64,000 nt of DNA from Heptranchias perlo (lineage: Eukaryota), in the NCBI RefSeq assembly GCF_035084215.1, contig NW_027138407.1, positions 744,001 through 808,000 of the forward strand, written 5' to 3'. Of the stretch, positions 22,244-60,172 are shown piece by piece. A program made the translations under genes and the position numbers. The notes below the pieces were generated by a model. The model worked only from the letters and a program-made list of their open reading frames with translations, ran no database searches and was not told the DNA's origin. Within the stretch, counting starts at the first letter, position 1. Each line of letters starts with the position of its first letter.

Positions 22244-22300
22244 TGGGATTGACGATGAGCCGTGTCCCCTTGCCGAAAGTTAGCTTGTCGTTATTGTATG
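22244..22300 (-). CDS. TRAJ: TCR alpha J segment YNNDKLTFGKGTRLIVNP
   Basis: GTGAGT donor; CACAATG(22301-22307)-12-ACAAATACA. Confidence 0.93.
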
Positions 22301-22519
22301 CACAATGATACATCTCCGCACAAATACATATAGTCACCTTCACCATTGACACTGGTTGCCTTAATGTGTTAGGACCAATTATATGTGTTGGAGGATACCT
22401 AGGTTGTCCTGCAACGTGAACACGTTCAGTCCACAGCGTGGCAATTAACGAAATGTTAAGGAAATTGCAAAAAAAAATTACCAGTCGAACAATGAGTCTA
22501 GTTAAAAATAAGACGTGCA

Positions 22520-23147: not shown

Positions 23148-23210
23148 TGTGTTCTACAGTCAGTCTGGTTCCTCCGCCGAAAAGAAGCTCCTTACCACCC
23201 GCTGTATTTA
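23148..23210 (-). CDS. TRAJ: TCR alpha J segment NTAGGKELLFGGGTRLTVEH (most 5' TRAJ)
   Basis: GTAAGT donor; CACAGTG(23211-23217)-12-ACAAAATCA. Confidence 0.93.
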
Positions 23211-23499
23211 CACAGTGTTACAGACTAGAACAAAATCACTTCTATATGGTGAGAGAGCCGGATGATACGATTATTTCTATTTTCCAGTTGAATGCATTCT
23301 ATAATATTATTTTTTAAAAACACGGAACTATGACAAATGAAAGTTTCCAGCTTTCCCTTTTATACATCATTGGAATGCGAGTCCCATTCACATATCTGTA
23401 CGTCCCTGCCTATCTATTTATCTTTCTGTCTATCCAAGTAGCAAGCGGGGAGCATAGCAAACTAATGTTTGATGCAATGTATGTATTGGTAGCAGATGC

Positions 23500-23890
23500 A
23501 TACATTGACCTAGATGTACATGCATTCAAACAGATATGGAAACAATGCATAGATGCATCACTGCCTCGATCTTATGTAATGCATACCACAGAACCTAATC
23601 ATTGACACCCCTCTGTCTTCGTGTCCAGCTATCCTTGTAGAAACTAACACAACTAACATTTATATTCGTGCTTTAAATAATAAAGTAATTGTAATAAAAT
23701 ATGGAACTTCGGTGAAAGTAGAGTCGTTAATTTAAATTGGCTTCGTGCGGAGGTGAAAAGAATATATTGTTTTTAAATGCTTCTTTGTTTTCGATTTCCC
23801 ACCCTGTTACTCGTTGAAAATCCAATCTTCCTTCGCGGTGTGGTAACAGGTGAAATGTGCTAAACATCCACAAGGGGGCGCAAGCGCGCT
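23500..23890. promoter_or_regulatory. Candidate TEA-like element: CTCF, RUNX, E-box and RORE motifs
   Basis: CCACAAGGGGGCGC (23868-23881), TGTGGT (23839-23844), CAGGTG (23847-23852), minus-strand ACATCTAGGTCA (23506-23517); 0.3-0.7 kb upstream of the first TRAJ. Confidence 0.45.
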
Positions 23891-24650
23891 ATGCACGACA
23901 TTAAAGAGAAGTTAGAATTGGAAAGCTTGTCCACCGGCTTCCCTGACGATAATAAAAAGTTCACTCTTCAGATCGATACTTGACATCAGAATTTCGTTTC
24001 CAAATAAAGAGCAGACCCAACACAATTAATTGTCGATCAATGGCCACCGATAAATACCTACCTCGCGTTACTTATTTTGCACATAAAACTTCATCTTCAA
24101 GTGCAGGAATACTTTATTGGCCTCTTGAAGTAAAAAGTCTATATATAATTTATAAATTACTCTTATTTTAGAGTATAACTGGGAGAAAGGAAAAGGAAAG
24201 AAACAAGAAAGGAAGGAAGAAATAATGGACGGTTGAACGCTATCTTTAAAGAGATAAATTTAACGCTATTTTAAACTCCAACGCCTTAAAGAAAAAACAG
24301 ATGAGAAGCTTTAATTTGTGCAATCGCTTCTCAAGTCTCACAGAAATGGATCAGAGTTCTATGGAAATAATGGATTATTTCAGAATGTAGTATCGGAAAA
24401 ATGTGAGATATGTAAGACGGTGCAGAGGAGATTTATCAGAATGGTACCAGGGATGAGGGACTTTAGTTGCGTGGAGAGACTGGGGAAACTGGGATTGTTC
24501 TCCTTAGAGCAGAGAAGGTTAAGGGGAGATTTAATAGAGGTGTTCAAAAATCATGAAGTGTATTGATAGAGTAGATGAGGAGAAACCGTTTCCACTGGAA
24601 GGAGGGTCAGTAACCAGAGGACACAAATTGAAGTTAATTGGCAAAAGATT

Positions 24651-27600
24651 CAACAACAATATCAACAACTTGCATTTATATAGCGTTTTCACTGTAGTAA
24701 AACGTCCCAAGGCGCTTCATAGAAGCGATTATCAAACAAAATTTGACACTGAGCCACATAGGGAGATATTAGAACAGGTGACGAAAAACTTGGTGAATGC
24801 AATAGGATTTAAGGGCCAGACTGGGAGCACAGGGGTGATGAGTGAACGGGACTTGGAGCGAGTTAGGATACAGACAGCAGAGTTTTGGATGACCTCACGT
24901 CTATGGAGGGTGAAGATGGGTGGATGGCCAGGAGAGCATTGGAATAGTCAACTCTAGAGGAAAGAAAGGCATGGGTGAGGGTTTCAGCAGCAGATGAGCT
25001 GAGGCAGGGGCGGAGACGGGCGATATTACCGAGGTGAAAGTAGGCGGTCTTGGTGATGGAGTGAATATGTGGTCAGCAGCTTATCTCAGGGTCAAAGGGG
25101 ACGCCCAAGGTTGCGAACAGTCCGGTTCAGCCTCAGACACTGGCCAGGGAGAGGGATGGAGTTGGCGACTGGGGAACGGAGTTTGTGGCAGGGACTGAAG
25201 ACAATGGCTTCGATCTTCCCAATATTTAGTTGGAGGTTATTTCTGCTCATCCAGTACTGGATGTTGGACAAGCAGTGTGACAAATCAGAGACAGTGGAGC
25301 GGTCGAGGGTGGTGATGGTGCGGTAGAGCTGGTTGTCGTTAATGGACATGTGGAACCTGATGTCATGTTTTCGGATGATATCACCGAGGGGCAGCATGTA
25401 GATGAGAAATAGGAGGGGGCCAAGGATAGATCCCTGGGGGTCTCCAGAGGTATCGGTGTGGCAGTGGGAAGGGAAACCATTGCAGGTGATTCTTTGGCTA
25501 TGACTGGATAGATAAGATTGGAACCAGGCGAGGGCAGTCCCTTCCAGCTGGACGACGGAGGAGAGGCATTGGAGGAGGATGGTGTGGTCGACCGTGTTAA
25601 AGGCTGCAGTCACGGTCACATAGGATGTCATTTGTGAGTTTGATAAGGGTTGTTTCATTCAAGTGCGAGGGCCGGAAATCAGATTGGAGGGATTCAAACA
25701 TGGAGTTGGGAGAAAGATGGACACGGATTTGAGAGGCAACAATCCGTTAAAGGACTTTGGAGAGGAAAGGGAGGTTGGAGATGGGGCGGTAGTTTGCAAG
25801 GACATAGGGGTGATGATGGCAGATTTGAAAGAGCAGAGAATAGTGCCTGAGAAGAGGGAATCGTTAACAATATCAGCTAACATGGGGGCCTGGAAGGGAA
25901 GTTGAGTGGTCAGCAGCTTGGTGGGAATAGGGTCGAGGGAGCAGGAGGTGGGTCTCATGGTCAAGATGAGCTCGGGGAGGGCATGAGGGGCGATAGGAGA
26001 GAAAGTAGAGAAAGATGTGAATTCAGGGCTCGGGCAATGGGAAGTTTGGCTCAGTGGGCTAGAGCAAGGCAGGGAAGTGGCAGAGGCAGCTGAATGGATG
26101 GTCTCAATCTTAGAGACAAAAAAGTGCATAAGCTCCTCGCACTTGTTGATGGAGGTGCGGGTGGAGGAGGCAGGGGAGAGGGGTTTAAGAAGATGGTTTG
26201 CGGTGAAGAGAAGCCGGGAGTTATCTTTGTATTCTAGACTGAGCCTGGAATAGTGATCAGTTTTGGCAGAGGACAGCAGGACCCGATAATACTTTATGTG
26301 GTCCAGCCAAATCTGGCGATAAATGGATAAACCAGTTGTCCGCCATACACTTTCAAGTGTGCGTCCTTTGGAGGTAAAGGATTGGAGATGATGGTCGTCC
26401 GAAGGGGAATGAAAAGGTTGAGAGAGAGTAATGGTTTTAATGGGGACAAGGGCATTAGTGGTGGCGGTGAGGGTGTGATTGAACTGACCGATGGCTGCAG
26501 AAATGTCAAAGCATCGATAGTTGGGAATTTGAAAGTGCCGTTGTAAGTTGCTTGGGGGAGAGTTTTTTCCAGGGGCGGACACAGAAGTAAGTGGGTTTGG
26601 GAGGGGGAAGGGAAATGTGGGTGGAGAGGGATACAAGGAAGTCCTCAGAGATGGCCTTATCTGCAATTGACATGATGGCAGCAGAGAGGCCACGTGAGAT
26701 AACAAGATCGAGGGGGCGGCTGTGAAGATGGGTAATGGAGTTAAATGGAGGGAGATATTAAGGGAGGATAAGAGGGCAGTGAAATCACCAATAACCTGCT
26801 CACCGATGCTCAGTTTGGGTTCCGCCAGGACCACTCGGCTCCAGACCTCATTACAGCCTTGGTTCAAACATGGACAAAAGAGTTGAATTCCAGAGGTGAG
26901 GTGAGAGTGACTGCCCTTGACATCAAGGCAGCATTTGACCGAGTGTGGCACCAAGGAGCCCGAGTAAAATTGAAGTCAATGGGAATCAGGGGGAAAACTC
27001 TCCAGTGGCTGGAGTCATACCTCGCACAAAGGAAAATGGTAGTTGTTGGAGGCCAATCATCTCAGCCCCAGGGCATTACTGCAGGAGTTCCTCAGGGCAG
27101 TGTCCCAGCCCAACCATCTTCAGCTGCTTCATCAATGACCTTCCCTCCATCATAAGGTCAGAAATGGGGATGTTCGCGGATGATTGCACAGTGTTCAGTT
27201 CCATTCGCAACCCCTCAAATAATGAAGCAGTCCGAGCCCGCATGCAGCAAGACCTGGACAATATCCAGGATTGGGCTTATGAGTGGCAAGTAACATTCAC
27301 GCCAGACAAGTGCCAGGCAATGACCATCTCCAACAAGAGAGAGTTTAACCACCTCCCCTTGACATTCAACGACATTACCATCGCCGAATCCCCCACCATC
27401 AACATCCTGGGGGTCACCATTGACCAGAAACTTAACTGGACCAGCCACATAAATACTGTGGCTACGAGAGCAGGTCAGAGGCTGGGTATTCTGCGGCGAG
27501 TGACTCACCTCCTGACTCCCAAAAGCCTTTCCACCATCTACAAAGCACAAGTCAGGAGTGTGATGGAATACTCTCCACTTGCCTGGATCAGTGCAGCTCC

Positions 27601-28690
27601 AACAACACTCAAGAAGCTCGACACCATCCAGGACAAAGCAGCCCGCTTGATTGGCACACCATCCACCACCCCAAACATTCACTCCCTTCACCACCGGCGC
27701 GCAGTGGCTGCAGTGTGGACCATCCACAGGATGGACTGCAGCAACTCGCCAAGGCTTCTTCAACAGCACCTCCCAAACCCGCGACCTCTACCACCTAGAA
27801 GGACAAGAGCAGCAGACACATGGAAACAACACCACCTGCACGTTCCCCTCCTGGTCACACACCATCCCGACTTGGAAATATATCGCCATTCCTTCATCGT
27901 CGCTGGGTCAAAATCCTGGAACTCCCTTCCTAACAGCACTGTGGGAGAACCGTCACCACACGGACTGCAGTGGTTCAAGAAGGCGGCTCACCACCACCTT
28001 CTTAAGGGCAATTAGGGATGGGCAATAAATGCCGGCCTTGCCAGCGACGCCCAAATCCCGTGAACGAATAAAGAAAATGTCGCTCGTTGCACAGGAGCTG
28101 AGGGAGGAAAGCAGCGAAGACACCTCGGTGATGAACATGGTGGTACTTGGGTGGCAGGTAAATAACGAGGATTTTTAAGGGATAGGTGAGAGGGATGGAA
28201 CAAGGTGAGATGCTCAAATGTGGAGTAGGGGGACAGTCCAAGATGTGAGTTGGCCATAAGGGCCACGTCACCATTGTGTCGGTCTGGACGGAGCAAGTGG
28301 TGGAAGGTATAACCAAGCGTGGCGTGGAGACTTCATTAAGGGGGAAGGTGTCAACACCCGTCAGCTAGGTTTTCGTCCAGGCCATATCAATACAATCATC
28401 CACAATTAGCATATGGCTGTCAAGGGCATTGTTCACAAATGAACGGGCATTCTGGAGGGAGATGCGGAGAGGGCGTTGATCGCTGATCCACTGGCAGAGT
28501 CTACAGGGTCAGGGCTGGGAGGGGTGAGTCGAACGGGAAGGAGATTGGCAAGAATAGCCCCCATTGGGCGCATTGGGTGGCAGTTAGGGATGCTGCTGGT
28601 AATGAGCCAGCGATAAGTGCATCCATGAGCCCTTTGGAGGATGCCACGAGAGGCACAGATGGTTGCTGTGGGCTGAGCCACCAGAGTGGA
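24651..28690 (-). mobile_element. Long degraded L2-type LINE (interrupted at 26786-28075)
   Basis: ORFs 25092-25658 (AFNTVDH..PQGSILGPLLF) and 25659-26785 (PTSCSLDPIPTKLL); L2 tail near 24651. Confidence 0.85.
26786..28075 (+). mobile_element. Younger non-LTR retrotransposon (CR1/L2 group) nested in the L2
   Basis: RT motifs LDIKAAFDRVWH, GVPQGS, FADD; the same 3' end occurs at 41671-42120, 42851-43803 and ~12234-12340. Confidence 0.88.
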
Positions 28691-29287: not shown

Positions 29288-29320
29288 GTCCATAGCAACG
29301 GGCAGCCAGTAGAGGGCGCC
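29288..29320 (+). promoter_or_regulatory. CTCF-like motif with adjacent RFX X-box-like motif
   Basis: CCAGTAGAGGGCGC (29306-29319); GTCCATAGCAAC (29288-29299). Confidence 0.45.
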
Positions 29321-29482
29321 CATCACGCGTACCACCTTACAAAAGCAGAGAGGAAACGTGCAAGAAAAGTGGAGCCACCCAGAACTGGTCAAATTAAACA
29401 AAATCTGCTTGCTAGTTATTACTTATTGGTTAGTTGCCACATAACGGAAACAGAAATCCAAATGCTATTCAGCCATCCGTCA

Positions 29483-44823: not shown

Positions 44824-44934
44824 CTTAAAATAACCACACTCTGGCCGTCAGCAGGACATTGAAGGCAACGCTCTTAAAAAAGAGAACTCTCAATCCCAAC
44901 ACCGTCAAAGACAGAAAATTTGCCCTCGGTAGAT
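44824..44934 (-). CDS. TRDC: TRDC transmembrane exon (D)LPRANFLSLTVLGLRVLFFKSVAFNVLLTARVWLF*
   Basis: ttacag acceptor; TCR alpha/delta-type TM with intramembrane R and K and the FN motif; TAA at 44825-44827 then G|GTAAGA donor. Confidence 0.95.
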
Positions 44935-45164
44935 CTGTAATAATTATCAAATTAAAGCATTGATTTAGTTAAACAATCCCACTGTATTACACTAACAGAA
45001 ATATATCTGTGCCACAAAATTGGAATATATTGTTGTATCTAGCTGGCTGGCTATTGTACATCCATCTATTTGTCTGTCTATATCTCTATCTATCTCGCTC
45101 TATCTCTCTATCTGTCTCTCGGCCTCTGTCTTTTACCTAAACACATATAACAGAAAGTACTGAC

Positions 45165-45221
45165 CTTTTTGGGTGTCCTTTAATCCTACTGTGGAATCAT
45201 TTGAACGTTTTTCACAGACAG
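45165..45221 (-). CDS. TRDC: TRDC connecting-peptide exon, 5' end in gap: ..VCEKRSNDSTVGLKDTQK
   Basis: Interchain Cys, NDS sequon, phase-1 G|GTCAGT donor in frame with the TM exon. Confidence 0.8.
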
Positions 45222-45351
45222 NNNNNNNNNNNNNNNNNNNNNNNNNNNNNNNNNNNNNNNNNNNNNNNNNNNNNNNNNNNNNNNNNNNNNNNNNNNNNNN
45301 NNNNNNNNNNNNNNNNNNNNNNNNNNNNNNNNNNNNNNNNNNNNNNNNNNN
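45222..45351. other. Assembly gap (130 N)
   Basis: Run of N. Confidence 1.
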
Positions 45352-45469
45352 ATGGAGGAAGCAATAATAAAGCAGTCCGATTGGCTCTTTAGCCTATTAT
45401 TAATCACAGTCGGACTTCCACGATTGTGTCAGCCGATCAGTGGTCGCAAACTGGCGTCTGAAAATCGGT

Positions 45470-47140
45470 GAGGGGTTTGGTCCGTTGGGATTGTGTACAT
45501 TTGGAGTAATTGGGAAGGGATTTTGTCTATTGGGATTCTGCACATTGGGAGGGATTGGGAAGGGATTTAGTCCATTGGGATTGTGTACATTGGGAGGGAT
45601 TGGGAAGGGATTTCGTTCATTGGGATTCTGTACATTGGGAGGGATTGGGTAGGGACTTGGTCCATTGGGATTGTGTACGTTGGCAGGGATTGGGAAGGGA
45701 TTTAGTCCATTGGGATTGTGTACATTGGGAGGGACTGGGGAGGGATTTAGTCCATTGGGATTGTGTACATTGGGAGGGATTGGGAAGGGATTTAGTCCAT
45801 TGGGATTCTGTACATTGGGAGGGATTGGGTAGGGACTTGGTCCATTGGGATTGTGTACGTTGGCAGGGATTGGGAAGGGATTTAGTCCATTGGGATTGTG
45901 TACATTGGGAGGGATTGGGGAGGGATTTAGTCCATTGGGATTGTGTACATTGGGAGGGATTGGGAAGGGATTTAGTCCATTGAGATTCTGTACATTGGGA
46001 GGGATTGGGTAGGGACTTGGTCCATTGGGATTGTGTACATTGGGAGGGATTGGGAAGAGCTTTAGTCTATTCGGATTCTGTACATTGGAGTGATTGGGTA
46101 GGGACTTGGTCCATTGGGATTGTGTACATTGGGAGGGATTGGGAAGGGATTTAGTCCATTGGGATTGTGTACATTGGGAGGGATTGGGGAGGGATTTAGT
46201 CCATTGGGATTGTGTACATTGGGAGGGATTGGGAAGGGATTTAGTCCATTGGGATTCTGTACATTGGGAGGGATTGGGTAGGGACTTGGTCCATTGGGAT
46301 TGTGTACGTTGGCAGGGATTGGAAAGGGATTTAGTCCATTGGGATTGTGTACATTGGGAGGGATTGGGGAGGGATTTAGTCCATTGGGATTGTGTACATT
46401 GGGAGGGATTGGGAAGGGATTTAGTCCATTGGGATTCTGTACATTGGGAGGGATTGGGTAGGGACTTGGTCCATTGGGATTGTGTACATTGGGAGGGATT
46501 GGGAAGGGCTTTAGTCTATTCGGATTCTGTACATTGGGAGTGATTGGGTAGGGACTTGGTCCATTGGGATTGTGTACATTGGGAGGGATTGGGAAGGGAT
46601 TTCGTTCATTGGGATTCTGTACATTGGGAGGGATTGGGTAGAGACTTGGTCCATTGGGATTGTGTACATTGGGAGGGATTGGGAAGGGATTTATTCCATT
46701 GGGATTCTGTACATTGGGAGGGATTGGGTAGGGACTTGGTCCATTGGGATTGTGTACATTGGGGGGGATTGGGAAGGGATTTATTCCATTGGGATTCTGT
46801 ACATTGTGAGGGATTGGGTAGGGATTTGTTCCATTGGGATTGTGTACATTGGGAGTAATTGGGAAGGGATTTAGTCCATTGGGATTGTGTAGATTGGGTG
46901 TAATTTCGACGGGATTTAGTCTATTCGGATTCTTTACAATGGGAGGGATTGGGAATTGATTTAGTACATTGGGATTGTGTACATTGGGACTGATTGGGAA
47001 GGAGTTTGGTCCATTGGGACTCTATACAATGTGACTGAATAGGAAGTGGTTTGGTCCATTGGAATTCTATAGAATGGGAGGGAATGGGAAGGGGTTTGGT
47101 CCATCGGAATTCTATACAATGGGAGTGAATAGGAAGAGGT
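45470..47140. repeat. 45-bp G-rich minisatellite in TRDC intron 1 (~35 units)
   Basis: Unit CATTGGGATTGTGTACATTGGGAGGGATTGGGAAGGGATTTAGTC; gives spurious 15-aa repeat ORFs. Confidence 0.97.
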
Positions 47141-47329
47141 TGGTGTAGTGCACTTTGATGCAAAGCTCCCTCTATACTGTCCCATCAACACTCCCAGGGC
47201 AGATACAGCATGTGTTAAATCCATAGTAAAGATCCCTCTACACTTAAATTGGTGAATATTGGCTACAATCCCCGTGTACCCCTTTCATTTCGCTCTGTGC
47301 CAAAAAGCCTTCTGGTTGTCCAAAGAATG

Positions 47330-47745
47330 GTTAATCCACTCAGGAGACTTGAGCCCACTCTCCAGGGCGACACTCCCAGTGTAGTAGTGAGGGAATGCTG
47401 CACTGTTGGCGGCGCCGTCTTTCGGGTGAGATATTAACCCGAGGGCCCGTTTGTCCCCTCATGTGAATGTAAAAGATCCCACGGCCACTATTGGATGAAG
47501 AGCAGGGGAGTTCTCCCTGGTGTCCTGGGCTAATATTTATCCTTCAACCAACATAACTATGAACAGATGACCTGGCCATTATCACATTGTCGTTTGTGGG
47601 AGCTCGCTGTGCGCAAATTGGCTGCCGCGTTTCCCTATGTAACAACAATGACTACCCTTCAAAAAGTAGTTCATTGGCTGTAAAGCGCTTTGGGACGTCG
47701 GGAGGTCGTGAAAGGCGCTGTAGGAGTGTAAGTCCTTCTTTTCAT
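47330..47745 (+). mobile_element. tRNA-derived SINE with L2-type tail
   Basis: Same body as 22520-22970 and 62265-62700. Confidence 0.75.
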
Positions 47746-47762
47746 GAAACCTTATCACTCAC

Positions 47763-48080
47763 CAGCTCCAGATTGTCGGGCGTCGCTTGCTACGGGAGAG
47801 TCTTTATTGTCTCTTGCCTCACATGTGACATTTACTGATTGTTCGTTTCGATTGAAAGAGAGGAATCCGGAGCTTCTATAGAGCCCGTTGTTTAACAAGT
47901 GACTGGATCCTGTGAAGTTGTTTTTTTCGTTAGTCGTCGTCTTCAAGAAGAACTCGAAATCTTTGGGGAAGAATTCCGACACCAGACACACCGCCGCCGT
48001 GTCGACGCTGCCTCCACCCCCAATTGGTATGGCGGGTGGGTAAAAGACCGACAAGGTGGGATTTTTCTGAGGTTGGTCCT
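47763..48080 (-). CDS. TRDC: TCR delta constant Ig-C1 exon DQPQKNPTLSVFYPP..AAVCLVSEFFPK..GLYRSSGFLSF..VNVTCEAR..SGA
   Basis: taattttcag acceptor and G|GTGAGT donor, phase 1/1, 318 nt open; two C1 cysteines, CL..F.P motif, NFT/NVT sequons; resembles shark TRDC as recalled; lies downstream of a 12/23 D and a J cluster and upstream of a long J array. Confidence 0.92.
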
Positions 48081-48980: not shown

Positions 48981-49044
48981 TCAAATCTACATTGAGTGTT
49001 GTTCCATTTCCAAATGCAAGAACATCTGTATATCCACCGCCAAA
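48981..49044 (-). CDS. TRDJ: TCR delta J segment FGGGYTDVLAFGNGTTLNVDL
   Basis: GTAAGT donor; CACGGTG(49045-49051)-12-ACAAGGGCC (weak nonamer). Confidence 0.85.
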
Positions 49045-50041
49045 CACGGTGTTAAATTTCAAAACAAGGGCCTATCTGTGCACATCTGCAAATTTCTGCA
49101 TATCCTTCACCAAATGAATAGGAACACAACAATCAATGCAATGATTTAACGGCCCCTATATTAATCCTGGAGTAATGATTCAACAAACAACATCTGGAAT
49201 GATTCAGCAGACACTGAACCCACCGCTGGTTTCCTTTCCTTCGCGGATGGTGCGGATAGATTAAACCTCCCAAGTGCATCCAATTCAATATCTTTACATA
49301 AATAATTACTACTCTCGCATAATCGCTGGAAAATTGCGTCTGACGTCGAAGGGGAAAGTATCAAAATGTCAGCTTGCTACGTAGTGAACCTTTACATGGT
49401 TTAACTGTGAATAGGATGGTGCATTATAAGAAGGGATATAAAAAAAGCCACAGCGGCCAAAAAGTATGATTTGTTTGCTTGCACCTCGCACAAAAATGCT
49501 TAATTTCCCCCTTCACTTTCAGAGAGGAGTATTTAGCATTTGCGTCACACTAAACTATTTGCCTGAGCTATAGAAACTTCATTCTGTTTACCATTTTAAT
49601 AGAATCATATAGAATGGTGCAGCACTGGGGGAGGCCATTCTGCCCGACTTGCCTGTGCCGGCTCTTTGAAAAAACTATCCAATTAGTCCCACTCCCGCTC
49701 TCTTTTCCCGTAGCCCTGCAAATTTTTCGCCATTCATGTATTTATCCAATTCCCTTTTTGAAAGTTACTATTCAATCTGCTTCCACCGCCCTTTCAGGCA
49801 GCGCATTCCAGGTCATCACAAATCGCTGCTCCTCGTGTCGCCTCTGGTTCTTTTGCCAATTAACTTAAATCTGTGTCCTCTGGTTACCGACCCTTCTGCC
49901 ACTGGAAACAGTTTCTCCTTATTTACTCTATCAAATCCCTTCATGATTTTGAACGCCTCTATCAAATATTCCCTGAACGTTTCCTTCTCTATCTTGCCTG
50001 GGATTATTCCAGAATCTTCGAAATGTTTTTTTTTTACTTAC

Positions 50042-50103
50042 TTGGTTCCACTATGAGTTCCGTTCCAGCTCCGAACGTCAGTGGGTCTCTGTAACTATAG
50101 CTC
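50042..50103 (-). CDS. TRDJ: TCR delta J segment SYSYRDPLTFGAGTELIVEP
   Basis: GTAAGT donor; CACCGTG(50104-50110)-12-ACAAATTCC. Confidence 0.9.
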
Positions 50104-50685
50104 CACCGTGACTCGCCTTCATACAAATTCCTCACTCCCTTCAATAAAGCGCCCTTCATACAGTATCAACTTTAAACCTTTTTTACACGCGTCTCATGAC
50201 AGTTACGCCGATTTTTTTGAAAAGCGACCTCAAAGAGAGGAGCAGCAAACACCCTGATTTCTGTCCATCCGACAGTATGTTCAGGCCGTTTTAGTTAGAC
50301 ACCTAGTCAAATAATTTCAAGAATATTGCTTTTCGCCAATTCTTGGTGTGTATAATTTAAAAAAAAAACACTCGTGAGGCAGGAATAGAACCATGCAATC
50401 ATTGAAATTTACAGCATAGACGGAGGCCATTTGGCCCATCGCGCCTGTGCTGGCTCTTTCCAAGTGAAATCGGAAATTAATATCGTCGTCTCTTTTAATG
50501 GCCCTGTTTCTTGTTCTGATTCAAATATATATCCAACTTTTCATTAAAAGATGCAATGGTCACTGCCTCGACTATTCTGTGTTCTGAGAATGCTCCGTGC
50601 ATAAATAATTTGGGCATAATCTCTTTTTTTCGTTCGCAGTGAAAAATTCAAATGTACGATGAGTAGCAAGTTGGTTTTTACTTAC

Positions 50686-50745
50686 TTGTTTCCACAGTTA
50701 CTTTGGTACCAGCTCCAAATATGAGCTTGTCGATATTCAAGTTCA
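50686..50745 (-). CDS. TRDJ: TCR delta J segment NLNIDKLIFGAGTKVTVET
   Basis: GTAAGT donor; CACATCA(50746-50752)-12-ACAAAAGCT. Confidence 0.88.
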
Positions 50746-50894
50746 CACATCAGCATATCTCTCAACAAAAGCTGACTCCCTGCAACATGCTTGATTGAAA
50801 TTATGATAGTCCATTCAAAAATTATGATAAAGTATAAGATAGATAGATAGAAAGATAAATAGAAATATTGATAGATAGATACATAGATAGATAG

Positions 50895-53745
50895 GGGCCG
50901 GTATTAGGACCACTGCTCTTTTTGATATATATTAATGACCTGGACTTGGGTATACAGAGTATAATTTCAAAGTTCGCAGATGAAACAAGACTCAGGAATG
51001 TAGGAAACAGTGTGGAGGATAGTAACAGACTCCAGGAGGACATAGACAGACTGGTAAAATGGGCATACACTTGGTAGATGAAATTTAATGCAGAGAAGTG
51101 TGAAGTGATTCATTTTGGTAGGGAGAATGAGGAGAGGCAATGTAAACTAAATGGTACAATCTTAAAGGGGATACAAGAATAGAGAGACCTGAGGAGGGGT
51201 GGCGGGTTGGGGGGGGGGGGTGTACACAAATCTTTGAAGGTGGTAGGACAAGTTGAGAAGGCTGTTAAATAAAGTATATGGGAACCGGGGCTTTATAAAT
51301 CGAGGCATAGAGTACAAAAGTAAGGAAGTTATGCTAAACCTTTATAAAACACTGGTTAGGCCCCGGCTGGAGTATCGTGTCCAATTCTGGGCACCACATT
51401 TTAGGAAGGATGTCAAGGCCTTGGAGAGGGCGAGGAGGAGATTTACTAGAATGGTACCAGGGATGAGGGACTTCAGTTCTGTGGAGGGATTCGAGAAGCT
51501 GGGATTGTTCTCTCTAGTGCAAAGAGCTTCTACAAATACATAAAGGGCAAAAGAGTAACTAGGGAGAGAGTAGGGCCTCTTAAGGATCAACAAGGTCATC
51601 TATGTGCGGAACCACAAGAGATGGGAGAGATCCTAAATGAATATTTCGCATCGGCATTTACGGTTGAGAAAGGCATGGATGTTAGGGAACTTGGGAAAAT
51701 AAATAGTGATGTCTTGAGGAGTGTACATATTACAGAAAGGGAGGTGCTGGAAGTCTTAACACGCAACAAGGTAGATAAATCTCCGGGACGTGATAAAATG
51801 TCTCCCAGGACGTTATGGGAGGTTAGGGAGGAAATTGCGGGTCCCCTAGCAGAGATATTTGAATCATCGACAGCTACAGGTGAGGTGCCTGAAGATTGGA
51901 GGGTAGCAAATGTTGTGCCTTTGTTTAAGAAGGGCGGCAGGGGAAAGCCTGGGAACTACAGACCGGTGAGCCTGACATCTGTAGTGGGTAAGTTGTTAGA
52001 GGGTATTCTGAGAGACAGGATCTACAGGCATTTGGAGAGGCAGGGACTGATTAGGAACAGTCAGCATGGTTTTGTGAGAGGAAAATCATGTCTCACGAAT
52101 TTGATTGAGTTTTTTGAAGGGGTAACCAAGAAGATAGATGAGGGCTGTGCAGTAGACGTGGTCTACATGGACTTTAGCAAAGCCTTTGACAAGGTACCGC
52201 ATGGTAGGTTGTTATATAAGGTTAAATCTCACGGGATCCAAGGTGAGGTAGCCAATTGGATACAAAATTGGATTGACGACAGAAGACAGAGGGTGGTTGT
52301 AGAGGGTTGTTTTTCAAACTGGAGGCCTGTGACCAGCGGTGTGCCTCAGGGATCGGTGCTGGGTCCGCTGTTATTTGTTATTTATATTAATGATTTGGAT
52401 GAGAATTTAGGAGGCATGGTTAGTAAGTTTGCAGATGACACCAAGATTGGTGGCATTGTGGACAGTGAAGAAGGTTATCTAGGATTGGAACGGGATCTTG
52501 ATAAATTGGGCCAGTGGGCCGATGAATGGCAGATGGAGTTTAATTTAGATAAATGTGAGGTGATGCATTTTGATAGATCGAATCGGGCCAGGACCTACTC
52601 TGTTAATGGTAGGGCGTTGGGGAGAGTTATAGAACAAAGAGATCTAGGAGTACAGGTTCATAGCTCCTTGAAAGTGGAGTCACAGGTGGATAGGGTGGTG
52701 AAGAAGGCATTCAGCATGCTTGGTTTCATTGGTCAGAACATTGAATACAGGAGTTGGGATGTCTTGTTGAAGTTGTACAAGACATTAGTAAGGCCACACT
52801 TGGAATACTGTGTACAGTTCTGGTCACCCTATTATAGAAAGGATATTATTAAACTAGAAAGAGTGCAGAAAAGATTTACTAGGTTGCTACCGGGACTTGA
52901 TGGTTTGACTTATAGGGAGAGGTTGGATAGACTGAGACTTTTTTCCCTGGAGAGTAGGAGGTTTAGGGGTGACCTTAAAGAAGTCTATAAAATAATGAGG
53001 GGCATAGATAAGGTAGATAGTCAAAATCTTTTCCCAAAGGTAGGGGAGTCTATAACTAGGGGGCATAAATTTAAGGTGAGAGGGGAGAGATACAAAAGGG
53101 TCCAGAGGGGCAATTTTTTCACTCAAAGGGTGGTGAGTGTCTGGAACGAGCTGCCAGAGGCAGTAGTAGAGACGGGTACAATTTTGTCTTTTAAAAAGCA
53201 TTTGGACAGTTACATGGGTAAGATGGGTATAGAGGGATATGGGCCAAGTGCAGGCAATTGGGACTAGCTTAGTGGTATAAACTGGGCGACATGGACATGT
53301 TGGGCCGAAGGGCCTGTTTCCATGTTGTAAACTTCTATGATTCTAGTGCAGAGAAGGTTCAGGGGAGATTTGATAGAGGTGTTCAAAATTATGAAGGGTT
53401 TTGACAGAATAAATAAGGAGAAACTGTTTCCACTGTCAGGAGGGACGGTAACCAGAAGAAACACATTTAAGATAATTGCCAAAAAGAGCCAGGAGGGGAG
53501 ATGAGCATATTGTTTTTTACTCAGTGACTTTTAGGTCCTGGAATGCATTGTCTGAAAGGGCGTTGGAAGCAAATTCAATATTAACTTTCAGAAGGGAATT
53601 GGATATATACTTGAAAGGGCACTATTTTGCACGGCTATGGGGAAAGAGCAGAGTGGCGTGCGCCTAATTGTACAACACTTTCATAGAGCCAGCACAGGCA
53701 CGATGGGCCAAAATGTCTCCTTCTGTGCTGCATCATTCTATGAAA
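50895..53745 (+). mobile_element. Older CR1-type LINE, interrupted at 51522-53341
   Basis: RT fragments; the host sequence GGGATTGTTCTC..GCAGAGAAGG is split by the insertion. Confidence 0.85.
51522..53341 (+). mobile_element. Young 5'-truncated CR1 LINE with a 548-aa open RT-containing ORF2 (51621-53267)
   Basis: YRPVSL, QHGF, DFSKAFD, GVPQGSVLGP, FADD without stops; flanked by a TCTAGTGCA direct repeat (51513-51521, 53342-53350). Confidence 0.95.
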
Positions 53746-53933
53746 AGCGCTGGATTAATGCTATCGCTAAAATGGTGTTCGTAGTTCGTACGAGACAATG
53801 CAATGTCACCGTCCCTTATTTCCAACGTAAATGTTATTATTAAGACAAACATTCTTTTGGGATGATGCAACGTTTTGTTCAGGAACCATCTTGTCTTTTC
53901 ATGACATAAACATTTTTTATCAGAAAATAATTA

Positions 53934-55270
53934 ATGAGAGGGTGACTGAACACCTCGAGAATTTTCAGTTAATCAGAGTGAGCCAGCATGGATTTGTGAA
54001 AGGTAGGTCATGCCTGACAAACCTGATTGAATTTTTTGAAGAGGTGACTAAAGTAGTGGACAGGGGAATGTCAATGGATGTTATTTATATGGACTTCCAG
54101 AAGGCATTTGATAAGGTCCCACATAAGAGACTGTTAGCTAAGATAGAAGCCCATGGAATCGTGGGAAAATTACGGACTTGGTTAGGAAATTGGCTGAGCG
54201 AAAGGCGACAGAGAGTAGGGATAATGGGTGTGAACTTACATTGGCAGGATGTGACTAGTGGAGTCCCGCAGGGATCTGTCTTGAGGCCTCAATTATTCAC
54301 AATATTTATTGATGACTTAGATGAAGGCATAGAAAGTCTCATATCTAAGTTTGCCGATGCCACAAAGATTGGTGGCATTGTAAGCAGTGTAGATGAAAAC
54401 ATAAAATTACAAAGCGATATTGATAGATTAGGTGAATGGGCAAAACTGTGGCAAATGGAATTCAATGTAGACAAATGTGAGGTCATCCACTTTGGATCAA
54501 AAAAGGATCGAACAGGGTACTTTCTAAATGGTAAAAAGTTAAAAACAGTGGATGTTCAAAGGGACTTAAGGGTTCAGGTACATAGATCATTGAAGTGTTA
54601 TGAACAGGTGCAGAAAATAATCAAGAAGGCTAATGGAATGCTGGCCTTTATATCTGGAAGACTGGAGTACAAGGTGGCAGAAGTTATGCTGCAGCTATAC
54701 AAAACCCTGGTGAGACCGCACCTGGAGTACTGAGAGCAGTTCTGGGCCACGCACCTTCGGAAGGACATATTGGCCTTGGAGGGAGTGCAGCGAGGGTTTA
54801 CTAGAATGATACCTGGACTTCAAGGGTTAAGTTACAAGGAGAGATTACACAAATTGGGGTTGTATTCTCTTGAGTTTCGAAGGTTAAGGGGTGATCTGAT
54901 CGAAGTTTATAAGATATTAAGGGGAACAGATAGGGTGGATAGAGAGAAACTATTTCCGCTGGTTGGGGATTCTAGGAGTAAGGGGCACAGTCTAAAATTT
55001 AGGCCCAGACCTTTCAGGAGTGAGATTAGAAAACATTTCTACACACAAAGGGTGGTAGAAGTTTGGAACTCTCTTCCACAAACGGCAATTGATACGAGCT
55101 CAATTGCTAAATTTAAATGTGAGATAGATAGTTTTTTGGCAACCAAAGGTATTCAGGGATATGGGTCAAAGGCGGGTATATGGAGCTAGATCACAGATCA
55201 GTCATGACCTTATCAAATGGCGGAGCAGGCACGAGGGGCTGAATGGCCTACTCCTGTTCCTATGTTCCTA
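53934..55270 (+). mobile_element. CR1-type LINE 3' part
   Basis: RT ORFs 53831-54733 and 54770-55189; TGTTCCTA tail. Confidence 0.92.
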
Positions 55271-55377
55271 TATCAATACTATATTTTCTGCAAATTCCCT
55301 TTGGAAAGGGGCGAAGAGACAATTTAACGTAAGCAACCCAGAAACCATTAAATTGGTTTTCAACCGTTTGAACTCAC

Positions 55378-55433
55378 TCGGTTCCACAGTTACCTTAGTC
55401 CCACCATCGAATCTTAACCCCTTAGCGTTACAA
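55378..55433 (-). pseudogene. TRDJ: TRDJ pseudogene NAKGLRFDGGTKVTVEP
   Basis: GTGAGT donor and nonamer ACAAAAACT (55453-55461) but no CAC heptamer at 12 bp; FDGG instead of FGXG. Confidence 0.75.
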
Positions 55434-55948
55434 ACGACAGCCACTTCTTTCAACAAAAACTTTCCACTATATTCATAGTCCCGGGTTCTTGCCATTGACA
55501 TATATTGTCAACGCACATATATTGTGAGCTAGGTCGAGTAGTACCCGCTCACATTGTCCCACATCTTGAACTCACACTGCCTATGTAATGCCCCACATTT
55601 AGTTTAATATCGTTTTCCATTTAGTACCCGACCTGAAGGGGTAGTGCAAGCAAATTCAATACTGACTTTCCAAGCCCCAAATTCGCGAGGAAGTGGGGTG
55701 AATTGGATCGCTCTTTCAAAGTGCGGACATGGACACGGTGGGCCGAATGGCCTCCTCCTATGATATATGATTCTGTAATTCTATAATATAATTGTGAATG
55801 CGCATAATTTCTGACCTCAATTTGTAGTGGTCATTTTATCCCTCCCCAAATTTTATACTGCAGAAGTGTTTTGCACATACTTCAGAATGCGAAAGCTCAG
55901 TTATTTTTACTAAAGCAAGATCAAAATAAGAGACGTTAGAAGACTTAC

Positions 55949-56008
55949 TGGGTTCTACAATGAGTTTGGTGCCACTTCCAAAGATAAGCTTTTCAGTTCT
56001 GTAGTCAG
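55949..56008 (-). CDS. TRDJ: TCR delta J segment DYRTEKLIFGSGTKLIVEP
   Basis: GTAAGT donor; CACAGTT(56009-56015)-12-ACAAAAACA. Confidence 0.92.
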
Positions 56009-56431
56009 CACAGTTGTACCAGATGTGACAAAAACAGGTCCAACCAAATGAACAGTATTGTAAGGGTTTTTTTTAAAAAAACAATCCTGACTTGACTAGC
56101 TTTGAGTTTCAAGTATACTTTGCGATTATACTTGCTTCCATTTCCTCCCGAAACAAATATAACGGTTTTCCCCACCATCAAACTGAATTTCCTTTGCACT
56201 ATTTTAAAAGCACAAGGAATGGATACCAGTTCACCTTTCCTTCCTGACATTTTTCCATTAGCATCTTTCTGTAGCCAACTCCTGAGGGAATTGTTTGACA
56301 TCAGAATGATTTTGATATCAGTAGATTCGATCAGTATATATTGATTTCAAATACGCATGCCTTAGTTCTGCGTTAGCGGTTGAAAACAAACAAAGCAATG
56401 TGTTGAGAAGGAAAAATGAGGTTCCATTCAT

Positions 56432-56492
56432 TCCATTCCACAGTTATTTGGGTCCTCTTTCCAAATGGGAGTTTCCTATCACTGTAGCAATA
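56432..56492 (-). pseudogene. TRDJ: TRDJ pseudogene CYSDRKLPFGKRTQITVEW
   Basis: FGKR; donor decayed to ATGAAT; CACAATT(56493-56499)-12-GCAATATCC. Confidence 0.65.
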
Positions 56493-56720
56493 CACAATTC
56501 TGTATTTCAGGGCAATATCCTATTACAGAGACCTGGAGTTTCAACTCCTGGCCACTGCACGTTTAATTAATGGGTGAGCTGAGTTGGACTGCTATCTTCT
56601 TAAAGTTTCTTTTCTCAATGAAAGTTTCTTTTCTCAATGGCTCTTTGCCAACAGTCGCCAGATAAATTTCAGCCGAAAATTACATCAAGATGAAAGTAAC
56701 AAAACTCAGTTAGCACTTAC

Positions 56721-56782
56721 TTGGCACAACTGTCAGTTGGGTCCCGCTGCCGAAGGTTAGTTTCTCAGTATAGTCATAATTA
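56721..56782 (-). CDS. TRDJ: TCR delta J segment NYDYTEKLTFGSGTQLTVVP
   Basis: GTAAGT donor; CACAGTA(56783-56789)-12-ACAGAAACC. Confidence 0.92.
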
Positions 56783-56848
56783 CACAGTAACAATTGCCCT
56801 GACAGAAACCTTCACTTGGACCAACTGATCCAGTTTCCAGCTTTACAC

Positions 56849-56900
56849 TAGAAAGAAGCACTTTGGTCCCATCTCCAAATGTCAGTGATAACTAGCCTGT
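56849..56900 (-). pseudogene. TRDJ: TRDJ relic (*)LSLTFGDGTKVLLS
   Basis: LTFGDGTK motif; in-frame TAG upstream, weak GTGTAA donor, no RSS. Confidence 0.5.
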
Positions 56901-57430
56901 AATCAACCTCCCATTGTCCGAGAAATTCTCGCCCTAGGAATTAAACTACCAACAGGTGCATTCTGTGTTTATCAAGCTTGGTGCCCTGTTTAGTCATAGC
57001 CCAATACAAACATATGGGACACGGTATCCTTCACTTTAGGCTCAGTGGGTAGCAATCTTGTCTCTGCGTCAGAAGGTTGTGGGCGCAAACTAGCAAAAGA
57101 ACCGGAGGGGAAATGAAGGGAATCTTTTTACTCCGTTTTTTACTCAGTTTTACTCATAACTTTGTTACGACCTGGAATACACTGCCTGAAAGGATGGTGG
57201 AAGCAGATTCAATAGTAAATTTCACAAGGAAATTGAATACATACTTGGAAAGGAAAACATTGCAGGCAATGGGGAAAGAGCAAGGGAAGTGGGATTAATT
57301 TGATTGCTCTTTCAAAGAGCTGGCGCAGGCACAATGGGCCGAATGGCCTCCTTCTGTGCTGTATGATTCTATGATTTTATGATTGAAAGGACACAAAATC
57401 GCTCATGTGCATTTAACAGTTCATACTTAC

Positions 57431-57482
57431 TTGGTTCCACTATGAGTTTCGTCCCTTTACCGAAGATAAGCTTATCAGTGAA
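57431..57482 (-). CDS. TRDJ: TCR delta J segment FTDKLIFGKGTKLIVEP (TRDJ1-like)
   Basis: GTAAGT donor; CACGGTG(57483-57489)-12-GCAGAAACC. Confidence 0.94.
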
Positions 57483-57584
57483 CACGGTGCTAAATCTTTG
57501 TGCAGAAACCGCCTGTCACACAACGTATCTGCCACCATGAGTACCTTAGCGTTCCTAACTATCTGTGTTTTTCACGACACAACA

Positions 57585-58135
57585 TTATCTGGTCTCCATA
57601 TTACAAAAAGGATACAGAGGATCTGTCGACGGTGCAAAAAAGATTTACAACGATGATACCAGAATTCAGAGGTTATATCTGTCAGGAAAGGCTGAACAGG
57701 CTGGCGCTCTTTTCTCTAGAGAAGAGGAGGCTGAGGGGTTACCTGAAAGAGGGCTTTAAGATTATGAACGGTTTCGATAGGGTAGACGTGGAGAAGATGT
57801 TTTTTTTTTCACTTGTGGGGGAATTCAAAACTAGAGGTCATAAATTTAAGATAGTCACTAATAAATGCAATAAGGAATTCAGGAGCAACTTCTTTACCCA
57901 GAGAATGGTTAGAACGTGGAACTCGCTACCACAAGGAGTAGTTGAGGCGAATAGTATAGCTACATTTAGGGTAAAGCTAGATAAACACATGAGGGAGAAA
58001 GGAATAGAAGGTTATGCTGATATGGTGAGATGAAGTAGGTTGAGAGGAGGCTCGTGTGGACCATAAACACCGGCATAGACCTGTTGAGCCTAATGGCCTG
58101 TTTCTGTGCTGTAAACTCTATGCAATTTTATGTAT
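57585..58135 (+). mobile_element. CR1-type LINE 3' fragment
   Basis: WSPYYKKD..RRLRGYL..FFTQRMVRTWNSLP. Confidence 0.88.
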
Positions 58136-58607
58136 CAAATATTTTCTCCTTACAAGACGTGTGCCTGCGGCCCAATAGTTAGACAAAGTTAAAAAAAAAT
58201 CAGCATTGAAAGGAGCAAAACCAGAGAATTTGTGGGGCCCACTATAAAATGGAGTCTTGAGGAGCATAAGGAAGCGTGTTGGTCTCACTCACATCGACCT
58301 CATTCTAAATGATTTCGTATTGGGGCTTTCAATGGGGAAAAGTAATTTTCAAAAGGTGATCAAGTTTCTTTTGGATCATTCTGGTACCCGGATCACCTGA
58401 TAACCCTCAGTGCACCTGAGATAATTAGTCTTGAGAAGAACCGATTGTGTACAAATATAGAAAGCACATTTCCCCCTCACTGGAGAATTTCTTATGCTCA
58501 CTTTCCTGGATGCCAACTAACAATTTTGCTCCCCTCTTTTGAAGAGAGCAGCAACTTCTGCATGTAAAATGAATCTCGCCAAATCGATAACAATAGTTTA
58601 TACTCAC

Positions 58608-58652
58608 TTGGCTCCACAGTCAGCTTGGTCCCAGTTCCGAATATTAGCGGGG
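58608..58652 (-). CDS. TRDJ: TCR delta J segment PLIFGTGTKLTVEP (heptamer only, no nonamer)
   Basis: GTGAGT donor; CACAGTG at 58653-58659; expected nonamer position reads TAGGTTATA. Confidence 0.75.
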
Positions 58653-58685
58653 CACAGTGATACATCTACAGTAGGTTATACTCAC

Positions 58686-58746
58686 TCGGCTCCACAGTTA
58701 ACCTGGTCCCGCTACCGAAGGTTAGTTTCTGAAGGCTGCTTGTTCA
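58686..58746 (-). pseudogene. TRDJ: TRDJ pseudogene TSSLQKLTFGSGTRLTVEP (no RSS)
   Basis: Intact FR4 and GTGAGT donor; no CAC heptamer or nonamer upstream. Confidence 0.75.
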
Positions 58747-59091
58747 AGCATTGATTGTAAAATCCAATTCACTTTCCTTCATTAATTTCAACCTCTACAC
58801 AAATCATGAACTGCATTGATGGTAAGTATAAAAACTGCGAAATCTTAGAACTAGAACCAGAGGAAATCTCCACCTGCCACCCCCCACCCCCTATAAGCGT
58901 AACTCAAATTTGAGGTTTTGGAAAGGCTGTAGGGCTCCCTAAATTGTCCTTGTTGTAGTTTTTGCATCTGAAACATGGCTTATCATTTCAAACTGATTCC
59001 TTAGCATTAGAACTAAGGCACGCAGAAAAAAAATTAGATTCATTTGCAGACTTGAAATCGTATCGCAAATATTCTGGTGGAATACACTTAC

Positions 59092-59155
59092 TGGGTTCCA
59101 CTATCAACGTGTTCCCATTTCCAAATGTCGCCTTCGCACTCTTACCGATAACTTT
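59092..59155 (-). pseudogene. TRDJ: TRDJ pseudogene VIGKSAKATFGNGNTLIVEP
   Basis: FGNG motif and GTAAGT donor; no recognisable CAC heptamer. Confidence 0.7.
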
Positions 59156-59600
59156 TAAGCTCCAAACATTCCTCAACCTGACAATTTGCAACATTTGTAA
59201 ACTGTACCTTAACACTCTATGTCAAAGTGCAGTGAAGCCTAATCTATACCACGGTTCTTAGAAGTAAATTTGTACATGGAGGGAGGATGAGAAGGTGGTA
59301 GTGGTGGTTGGGGCGGTGGATTAAGGATTTGCCTGGGTCCCTATCTGTAATGCACTGCCTGAAATGATGGTAGAAGCAGATTCAATAAAAACTTAATAAA
59401 AGTTAAATTCAATAAAAGGGAATTGGGTAATTATTTGAAAGGGAAATATTTGCAAGGCTATAGAGACAGAGCAGCCGAGTGGGACTAACTAGTTTGCTCT
59501 TTCTGGCCCCTCTACCAAGATTCACCAGAAGACAAACACCGGGCGATTGTTTCCATCTACAAGGGAAGAGAACGGGACACTTTCCTTACGTTTTACTTAC

Positions 59601-59666
59601 CCGCTTCTATAATTACTCTGGTCCCACTTCCGAATATTAGTGTAGTCGTACGATCCCAATAATCTG
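59601..59666 (-). CDS. TRDJ: TCR delta J segment DYWDRTTTLIFGSGTRVIIEA
   Basis: GTAAGT donor; CACAGTG(59667-59673)-12-CCAGAAACT. Confidence 0.9.
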
Positions 59667-60014
59667 CACAGTGACAACTGAACAGCCAGAAACTTCCAGG
59701 AACACATTTAGTGTTTCAGGGCGGTGAGGGGCTAGGGGGTGCATGTAACTGTCTGGGCTGGAGCTTAAAAGAAGCACCAGGAATTTAGATTGCGGCCGAA
59801 ACTGGCTGAAATTACGAACTGGACAACTTTAGAATTGTTGCTTAATTGTACTACGCCGTTACACATGTAGGTCAGTGAAACAACGCCCGCTGGTACATAC
59901 ACGTATTTGTTCGTGCTAAGGACTGGATATCGGGTTAAGGAAAAGACCCCGACTTTGCATCATCCGCTAAAGCGCCCCGAATATGAGAGAGAGAGAAGGC
60001 TCAAATCCACTTAC

Positions 60015-60070: not shown

Positions 60071-60172
60071 AATACTGTTGTGTACAAAAAAAACTGTGCG
60101 AACTATTAATTAAGTCTCCAAATAGTAAAAGGAGAAAAAGTTGAGAGACCAAATTGAGGTGTTGGTACTTAC

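What the first reader, a model, noticed from the sequence alone, without database searches (positions are those of the whole stretch)
23500..23890. Candidate shark TEA element: CTCF + RUNX + E-box + RORE just 5' of the first J-alpha
Seen: a strong CTCF-like 14-mer CCACAAGGGGGCGC, TGTGGT and CAGGTG within 45 bp of each other, and ACATCTAGGTCA closer to the J. Known: the mammalian T-early-alpha promoter lies between C-delta and the first J-alpha, binds RORgamma-t and carries a CTCF site facing the V/D-delta side. This motif also points toward C-delta/D-delta. Inference: CTCF-loop control of delta versus alpha rearrangement may date to the jawed-vertebrate ancestor.
Basis: partly seen in the sequence, partly recalled or inferred. 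Interest (0 to 1): 0.7.

Follow-up and report, generated by a model that had tools for sequence, protein, structure and literature searches.

The report
Shark TCR delta/alpha CTCF boundary pair
Between the delta and alpha parts of this shark's T-cell receptor locus sit two strong motifs for the genome-folding protein CTCF, in the same place and direction as the mouse boundary site, so they likely anchor a similar loop, but duplicated copies suggest the flagged motif cluster is recent rather than ancient and binding is untested.

Summary
The CTCF motif (23865, 20.1 bits) faces the V side like the mouse TEA site. These are the only two motifs of 18 bits or more in 204 kb, and convergent motifs lie 57-70 kb away, just past the first four V genes.

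The interval was duplicated with C-delta into the V region (11 copies, about 79% identical). All 11 keep a recognisable 29303 site (7 of 11 at 19.8 bits or more). At 23865, the 9 copies covering it score only 6.8-10.9 bits, and none keeps the RUNX, E-box or RORE motif. Trees place 80-85% of the distinguishing branch on the window's side, so the cluster is likely younger than a lineage-specific duplication. The 29303 site lay about 2 kb from J-alpha-1 before a 4-kb retroelement insertion.

RNA evidence for a promoter here is inconclusive; no other species' DNA was available. Verdict: plausible TEA-like boundary; ancient TEA promoter not supported. Earlier scan notes already described the duplicated cassettes.

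The parts
23865..23883 (+).
   Evidence: 20.1 bits; homologous site 6.8-10.9 bits in 9 of 9 copies that cover it; that weak form is 97% identical among copies, 95th percentile of 1129 windows
29303..29321 (+). CTCF motif 2, V-facing, stronger and present before the duplication; best candidate for the TEA-site equivalent
   Evidence: 23.3 bits; present in 11 of 11 copies, 19.8 bits or more in 7, 11.5-13.2 in 4; window-versus-copy identity at the 98.5th percentile of 597 windows
23839..23844 (+). RUNX hexamer TGTGGT
   Evidence: kept in 0 of 8 copies
23847..23852 (+). E-box CAGGTG
   Evidence: kept in 0 of 4 fully aligned copies, and the copies carry a roughly 300-bp insertion at this point
23506..23517 (-). 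RORE-like half-site ACATCTAGGTCA
   Evidence: fails strict pattern; kept in 0 of 5 copies
23148..23238 (-). First J-alpha (coding 23148-23210, FGGG motif) and its 12-RSS (23211-23238); the duplicated block ends inside it at about 23187
22244..22328 (-). Second J-alpha and 12-RSS; covered by an unrearranged contig of a probable RNA run that leaves the genome at the splice donor
   Evidence: single copy in the assembly
24650..28680 (.). About 4-kb retroelement-rich insertion, absent from the copies, that moved motif 2 from about 2.06 kb to 6.09 kb from the first J-alpha
   Evidence: copies are contiguous across it; RVT_1 piece at 25350-25643, E 1.4e-06, just under the Pfam cut-off; distances
44825..48080 (-). 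C-delta gene (C1 exon about 47755-48080, TM exon about 44825-44937)
   Evidence: C1-set match E 0.0039; assignment to delta rests on the upstream 12/23 D segment and on recalled TM sequence features
49000..60620 (-). Seven J-delta (RSS at 49045, 50104, 56009, 56783, 57483, 59667, 60236) and one D-delta (60569-60583, 12 and 23 RSS) that the predicted loop would enclose

Best explanation
Two strong CTCF motifs (23865 and 29303), both facing the V genes, lie between C-delta and the first J-alpha and likely form the delta/alpha boundary anchor of this shark locus, working like the CTCF site of the mouse TEA promoter. Shown: positions, orientation, rarity, convergent motifs at C240:829,933 and 837,670, and the states of both motifs in duplicated copies. 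Inferred: CTCF binds; cohesin extrusion stops at the pair and at the convergent sites, giving a 57-70 kb loop around C-delta, seven J-delta, D-delta and the four nearest V segments; the same anchor would later hold proximal V genes near the 5' J-alpha. Inferred history: 29303 is the older site and sat about 2 kb from J-alpha-1; a retroelement insertion pushed it away; a weak site at 23865 was strengthened by two substitutions on this lineage (order of the last two events unknown). The RUNX, E-box and RORE matches are probably recent or incidental; promoter activity here is not shown.
For: Motifs of 18 bits or more: 0 in 143 kb of J-alpha arrays and C-alpha genes, 2 of 2 V-facing in the 21.8 kb between J-alpha-1 and C-delta, 0 in the next 39 kb. 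[quoted passage not shown] First strong motifs on the V side face back toward the pair (829,933, 21.4 bits; 837,670, 21.1 bits). Motif 2 is shared with 11 of 11 copies. Stem estimates of 0.025-0.033 against a pendant branch of 0.156-0.165 in four trees put 80-85% of the window-versus-all-copies changes on the window's lineage; likelihood ratio for unprotected versus protected is about 10-17 for motif 1 alone and over 7,000 for the 7 of 38 differing positions of all four motifs. The C-delta tree groups window and six cassettes apart from five Mustelus sequences, 100/100.
Against: No binding, chromatin or cross-species DNA data. The matrix was recalled from memory. Constraint on motif 2 is modest: 0 of 14 fixed differences has probability 0.26 under neutrality, 4 of 11 copies have decayed to 11.5-13.2 bits, and several non-motif 14-mers are as conserved. 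V-region motifs point both ways (10 plus and 10 minus in the proximal 172 kb), so a convergent partner is easy to find, and the nearest V-side motif (828,398, 17.8 bits) faces away. The polarity argument needs a rough clock and has no outgroup; if the copies evolved twice as fast, the ratio for motif 1 falls to 2.7. The C-delta protein tree carries a long-branch warning and its bootstrap had not settled. Copies keep motif 2 without any J-alpha array downstream, which fits a plain C-delta 3' insulator equally well.
Confidence: 0.5

Rival explanations
1. One reading: 23.5-23.9 kb is an ancestral TEA promoter (CTCF, RUNX, E-box, RORE), and the V-region copies lost the motifs right after duplication because an active J-alpha promoter was useless or harmful there.
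For: All four motifs are intact only in the copy that still precedes J-alpha; 7 of 38 motif positions differ from all copies against 3.45 expected, P about 0.05; RUNX plus E-box beside a CTCF motif is uncommon (1 of 51 V-region motifs); a 257-nt contig of probable RNA run X5 covers 23391-23647. RORgamma-t at the mammalian TEA promoter is in print (PMC13739257 passage citing Villey 1999).
Against: Seven changes would have to fall on a stem holding 15-20% of the branch. The weak CTCF form is conserved among copies rather than decaying. The RNA piece has depth 3.3, like other scattered intron pieces at 2.6-6.7.
Confidence: 0.15
2. Motif 2 is only a 3' insulator of the C-delta gene that travelled with every C-delta duplication; motif 1 is weakly or not bound; J-alpha germline transcription comes from several J-proximal promoters and no TEA-like element exists here.
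For: Motif 2 is kept in cassettes with no J-alpha array. Unrearranged J contigs occur at the second J-alpha (22243-22477, depth 25) and at an internal J (7105-7233, depth 31, with a piece to 7302 beside a CACCTGTGGT motif at 7321). The second J-alpha cluster (first J at C240:681,045) has no homologous element and no motif of 18 bits or more upstream.
Against: A C-delta 3' insulator facing V is functionally half of what the mouse TEA site does; it does not explain why a second strong motif arose next to J-alpha-1. Mouse also has internal J-alpha promoters alongside TEA (recalled; Hawwari 2005 not held).
Confidence: 0.2
3. Neither motif is functional; both are chance or passenger matches.
For: No occupancy data; formal constraint on motif 2 is not significant (P 0.26); 2 of 60 simulated windows reach motif 1's score.
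Against: Two same-direction motifs of 20 bits or more in one 21.8-kb interval and none of 18 or more in the flanking 182 kb; 0 of 60 simulations reach 23.3; both sites rank in the top 5-6% of windows for identity among copies.
Confidence: 0.1

Closest known systems
[quoted passage not shown]
   Same: Lies between C-delta and the first J-alpha; CTCF motif faces the V genes; few or no other strong motifs in the J-alpha array; convergent motifs beyond D-delta.
Mouse INT1/INT2-TEA 80-kb loop (Chen 2015, not held; known from passages of PMC7696796 and PMC13639285)
   Same: Predicted 57-70 kb loop would enclose D-delta, J-delta, C-delta and a few proximal V segments.
   Different: Candidate partners (C240:829,933; 837,670) lie among V genes and may be V-linked motifs; no contact data; four V segments would be inside.
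Shark NAR-TCR delta cassettes (PMC12227049 passages; earlier scan notes e1-8656682 and e1-9548874)
   Same: The V-region copies used here as controls are the 3' flanks of six NAR-type V-D-J / supporting V / J / C-delta cassettes plus five partial tandem copies.
   Different: Here they serve as a natural experiment on the TEA interval; the cassettes themselves were not the object of this finding.

Membership tests
TEA promoter / TEA CTCF site | Located between C-delta and the most 5' J-alpha | tested here: met
TEA promoter / TEA CTCF site | CTCF motif oriented toward the V genes | tested here: met
   two motifs, 20.1 and 23.3 bits, both plus strand; mouse orientation from PMC5859386 passage; matrix recalled
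TEA promoter / TEA CTCF site | CTCF and cohesin actually bound in thymocytes | not testable with these tools
   no ChIP or ATAC data offered
TEA promoter / TEA CTCF site | Drives a germline transcript through the 5' J-alpha segments | tested here: inconclusive
   one probable RNA run (X5, contigs only, unstranded, same sample as the DNA): unrearranged second J-alpha at depth 25, 257-nt piece at 23391-23647 at depth 3.3; starts cannot be seen
TEA promoter / TEA CTCF site | RORgamma-t site | tested here: inconclusive
   half-site present, fails strict pattern, expected within 400 bp at 11.7% of positions and kept in 0 of 5 copies
TEA promoter / TEA CTCF site | Convergent INT-like CTCF site on the V side of D-delta | tested here: inconclusive
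   convergent motifs at C240:829,933 and 837,670, but V-region motifs point both ways and contact is untested
TEA promoter / TEA CTCF site | Deletion reduces use of the 5' J-alpha segments | not testable with these tools
   mouse phenotype from PMC13639285 passage
Ancient (jawed-vertebrate) conserved element | The CTCF+RUNX+E-box+RORE cluster is retained in diverged homologous sequence | tested here: not met
   paralogs only: RUNX 0 of 8, E-box 0 of 4, RORE 0 of 5, strong CTCF form 0 of 9
Ancient (jawed-vertebrate) conserved element | Conserved at the orthologous place in other cartilaginous fish | not testable with these tools
   all 7 listed runs are one organism and one sample; no look-alike window in other genomes

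The most novel reading that the evidence does not exclude
The INT-TEA type CTCF loop that separates TCR-delta from TCR-alpha recombination already existed in the jawed-vertebrate ancestor and is kept in sharks by binding-site turnover: a retroelement pushed the old V-facing site (29303) away from the first J-alpha, and a weak neighbouring site was upgraded and gathered RUNX, E-box and RORE motifs to rebuild a TEA-like promoter next to J-alpha-1.
Probability: 0.25. Interest if true: 0.7.

Novelty: new member of a known kind. Interest (0 to 1): 0.42.

Why it matters
TEA and its CTCF loop are studied in mouse and human; my searches of the held library found no paper on a shark equivalent. If bound, the pair would push loop-based control of delta versus alpha rearrangement back to cartilaginous fish, and it gives two exact sites and two partner sites to test. 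The duplicated C-delta flanks also show that the most eye-catching motif cluster is probably not the old part, a caution against reading ancestry from motif lists in one sequence.

Tried and rejected
Cross-species test: the run search listed 7 runs, all one organism and one sample; no RNA holder on record. Earlier-finding look-ups for look-alike DNA gave nothing. RNA run X5 showed no cover at 23648-24211 or 22970-23390, and X6 and X7 none at 23159-24211; contigs drop records, so these holes are not used as evidence. The 776 letters of the second-J-alpha contig that do not fit the stretch were not shown; the match runs one base into the donor, unlike two other J contigs, and a contig that long is unexpected for a shared C-alpha exon, so its partner exon is unknown; a second genomic copy was sought and not found. 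Two C>T differences in X5 (22311, 23564) sit in WRC contexts but may be alleles; not pursued. A TEA paralog upstream of the second J-alpha cluster was sought by BLAST; the 40 best hits shown lay in repeat-rich parts of the query and none covered 23.2-24.4 kb. No non-repeat minus-strand splice donor matching my patterns was found in 23240-30500, so no TEA exon can be named. Idea that the element is a genome-wide repeat: rejected, all 35 listed matches are on this contig. Idea that it derives from a V-gene flank: rejected, the copies carry a J-alpha-1 fragment with its 12-RSS and the whole C-delta gene, so the donor is the main locus. PDB search of the C1 exon gave only generic antibody constant domains; a near-length protein search gave no hit. 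Primary papers Chen 2015 and Hawwari 2005 were not held. Ancestral-state inference was not available, so polarity rests on branch lengths only.

Full report
Observation. The four motifs are at the stated place: RORE-like half-site 23506-23517 (minus), RUNX 23839, E-box 23847, CTCF 14-mer 23868. An RSS scan shows a minus-strand TCR locus: one D with 12 and 23 RSS at 60569-60583, seven J-delta, C-delta (C1 exon about 47755-48080, TM exon about 44825-44937), then a J-alpha array starting at RSS 23211. The window is G000:C240:744,001-808,000. I examined C240:624,001-1,673,000, 1,049,000 of the contig's 1,715,135 bases.

How unusual are the motifs. Motifs of 18 bits or more number 0 in the 143 kb of J-alpha arrays and C-alpha genes, 2 in the 21.8 kb from J-alpha-1 to the end of C-delta, 0 in the next 39 kb, then 20 in the proximal 172 kb of V genes (10 each way) and 31 in the next 490 kb. 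The small motifs are less telling: RUNX plus E-box within 50 bp at 0.8% of 10,215 random positions, any two of eight classes at 13.9%, a RORE half-site within 400 bp at 11.7%; 1 of 51 V-region CTCF motifs has RUNX plus E-box beside it. The RORE does not match my stricter pattern.

Comparison with mouse. [quoted passage not shown] Both shark motifs face V. The first strong motifs beyond D-delta that face back are at C240:829,933 (21.4 bits) and 837,670 (21.1), 57-70 kb away, with four V segments inside; a 17.8-bit motif at 828,398 faces away. Because V-region motifs point both ways, this is a match in layout, not proof of a loop.

A natural control. A search of the own genome with 23250-24200 returned 35 matches, all on this contig. 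Mapping showed 11 copies of parts of the interval at 1.14-1.49 Mb, about 79% identical to the window. Six belong to cassettes with a NAR-type V, D and J, a supporting V, their own J and an open C-delta C1 exon of about 60% protein identity; five are partial tandem copies. Earlier scan notes had described these cassettes. The copies hold an inverted piece of J-alpha-1 with its RSS, so the main locus is the donor. The window has a 4-kb retroelement-rich insertion (24650-28680) that the copies lack; without it motif 2 lies 2,062 bp from the first J-alpha RSS.

What the copies keep. Motif 2 is present in 11 of 11 copies, at 19.8-21.8 bits in 7 and 11.5-13.2 in 4; window-versus-copy identity is at the 98.5th percentile of 597 windows. 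Motif 1 is covered by 9 of 11 copies and scores 10.2-10.9 in 7 and about 7 in 2, owing to two shared core differences; this weak form is 97% identical among the copies (95th percentile of 1129 windows). RUNX is kept in 0 of 8, the E-box in 0 of 4 and the RORE in 0 of 5 aligned copies.

Which side changed. Four trees (two from BLAST projections, two from MAFFT alignments) give a window branch of 0.156-0.165 and a mean depth of the copies of 0.096-0.115, so under a clock the shared stem of the copies is only 0.025-0.033 and 80-85% of the branch is the window's own. The window base is absent from all copies at 191 of 2,102 columns (9.1%); in the four motifs at 7 of 38 positions (3.45 expected, P about 0.05) and in motif 2 at 0 of 14. 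If the motifs were old and protected in the window, the seven changes would have to fall on the short stem; the likelihood ratio against that is over 7,000 for all four and 10-17 for motif 1 alone, falling to 58 and 2.7 if the copies evolved twice as fast. Selection against the motifs in the new cassette could still have done it, and there is no outgroup. Against my own reading: 0 of 14 for motif 2 has probability 0.26 under neutrality, so its age is shown but its constraint only suggested. A protein search returned 7 hits: two cassette proteins labelled Heptranchias perlo and five from Mustelus asterias. The window's C-delta and the six cassettes form one clade apart from Mustelus (100/100, with a long-branch warning and unsettled bootstrap), so the duplication, and any later gain, is likely lineage-specific and cannot date to the jawed-vertebrate ancestor.

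RNA. Seven runs were listed, all one organism and sample, none on record as RNA. In probable RNA run X5, a 1,011-nt contig of depth 25 carries the second J-alpha with its unrearranged RSS and 176 further bases (22243-22477) and leaves the genome at the splice donor within one base; its other 776 letters were not shown. This fits a spliced germline J-alpha transcript. A similar contig covers an internal J or its duplicate (7105-7233, depth 31). A 257-nt piece at 23391-23647 has depth 3.3, similar to other intron pieces (2.6-6.7).

Mechanism. Most likely (0.5) the two V-facing motifs are a boundary anchor: bound CTCF would stop cohesin coming from the delta side and pair with convergent sites beyond the first V genes, confining early recombination to D-J-delta and later holding proximal V genes near the first J-alpha. 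Positions, orientation, rarity and paralog states are shown; binding, looping and any promoter are inferred. Rivals: ancestral TEA promoter lost in the copies (0.15), plain C-delta 3' insulator with J-local promoters (0.2), no function (0.1).

Novelty. Searches for 'T early alpha'+CTCF+shark and shark+TCR alpha+TCR delta+locus+CTCF found 0 papers; CTCF+cartilaginous fish+T cell receptor+recombination gave 3 unrelated listings; none of the 15 listed of 155 papers held 'TEA promoter'. Passages of PMC12227049 and PMC5931798 on shark TCR loci contain no CTCF, enhancer or TEA discussion for the terms searched. Most subscription papers on the nurse shark locus are not in the library and supplements were not opened, so absence from print is not established. 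Interest 0.42.

Noticed in passing
G000:C240:1,137,000-1,492,000: Six NAR-type cassettes, each with its own J and open C-delta C1 exon; the supporting V ends in a 23-RSS flank homologous to the main D-delta flank, and its Tyr-His-Cys codons contain the same heptamer as the D 5' RSS, suggesting a germline V-D fusion. Already noted by earlier agents.
   Followed up: partly
G000:C240:632,000-767,300: Two J-alpha/C-alpha clusters in tandem: J at 723-767 kb with C-alpha at about 717.8 kb, and J at 644-681 kb with C-alpha at about 635.4 kb (C1 domains 84% identical).
   Followed up: partly
G000:C240:701,458 and 702,607: Two identical V-facing CTCF motifs (15.7 bits) about 13-14 kb downstream of the first C-alpha, with strict RORE matches at 702,999 and 703,823; possible enhancer-side boundary or control region for the second J-alpha cluster.
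   Followed up: no
G000:C240:1,490,000-1,590,000: [quoted passage not shown]
   Followed up: no
window 7321-7330 and 2507-2516: Overlapping E-box/RUNX motif CACCTGTGGT about 125 bp upstream of the RSS end of a duplicated J-alpha whose unrearranged form appears in run X5 up to 7302; candidate internal J-alpha promoter.
   Followed up: partly
G000:C240:1,221,082; 1,230,238; 1,240,252; 1,250,344; 1,374,495: Five copies in which the last 20 bases of a V segment with its 23-RSS are fused to the homolog of window 23388-23592, next to an inverted J-alpha-1 fragment; origin of this rearrangement unexplained.
   Followed up: no
window 29480-34050: Internal tandem duplication of about 2.3 kb (88% identical) downstream of CTCF motif 2, and a 90-bp tandem repeat at 45460-47140 inside C-delta.
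   Followed up: no
window 22311 and 23564: C>T differences in run X5 not seen in DNA run X2, both in WRC contexts; alleles or AID-type changes, undecided.
   Followed up: no
G000:C240:1,051,000-1,094,000: Ig-heavy-like V, D and J segments (J reading WGQGTMV) embedded in the TCR V region.
   Followed up: no
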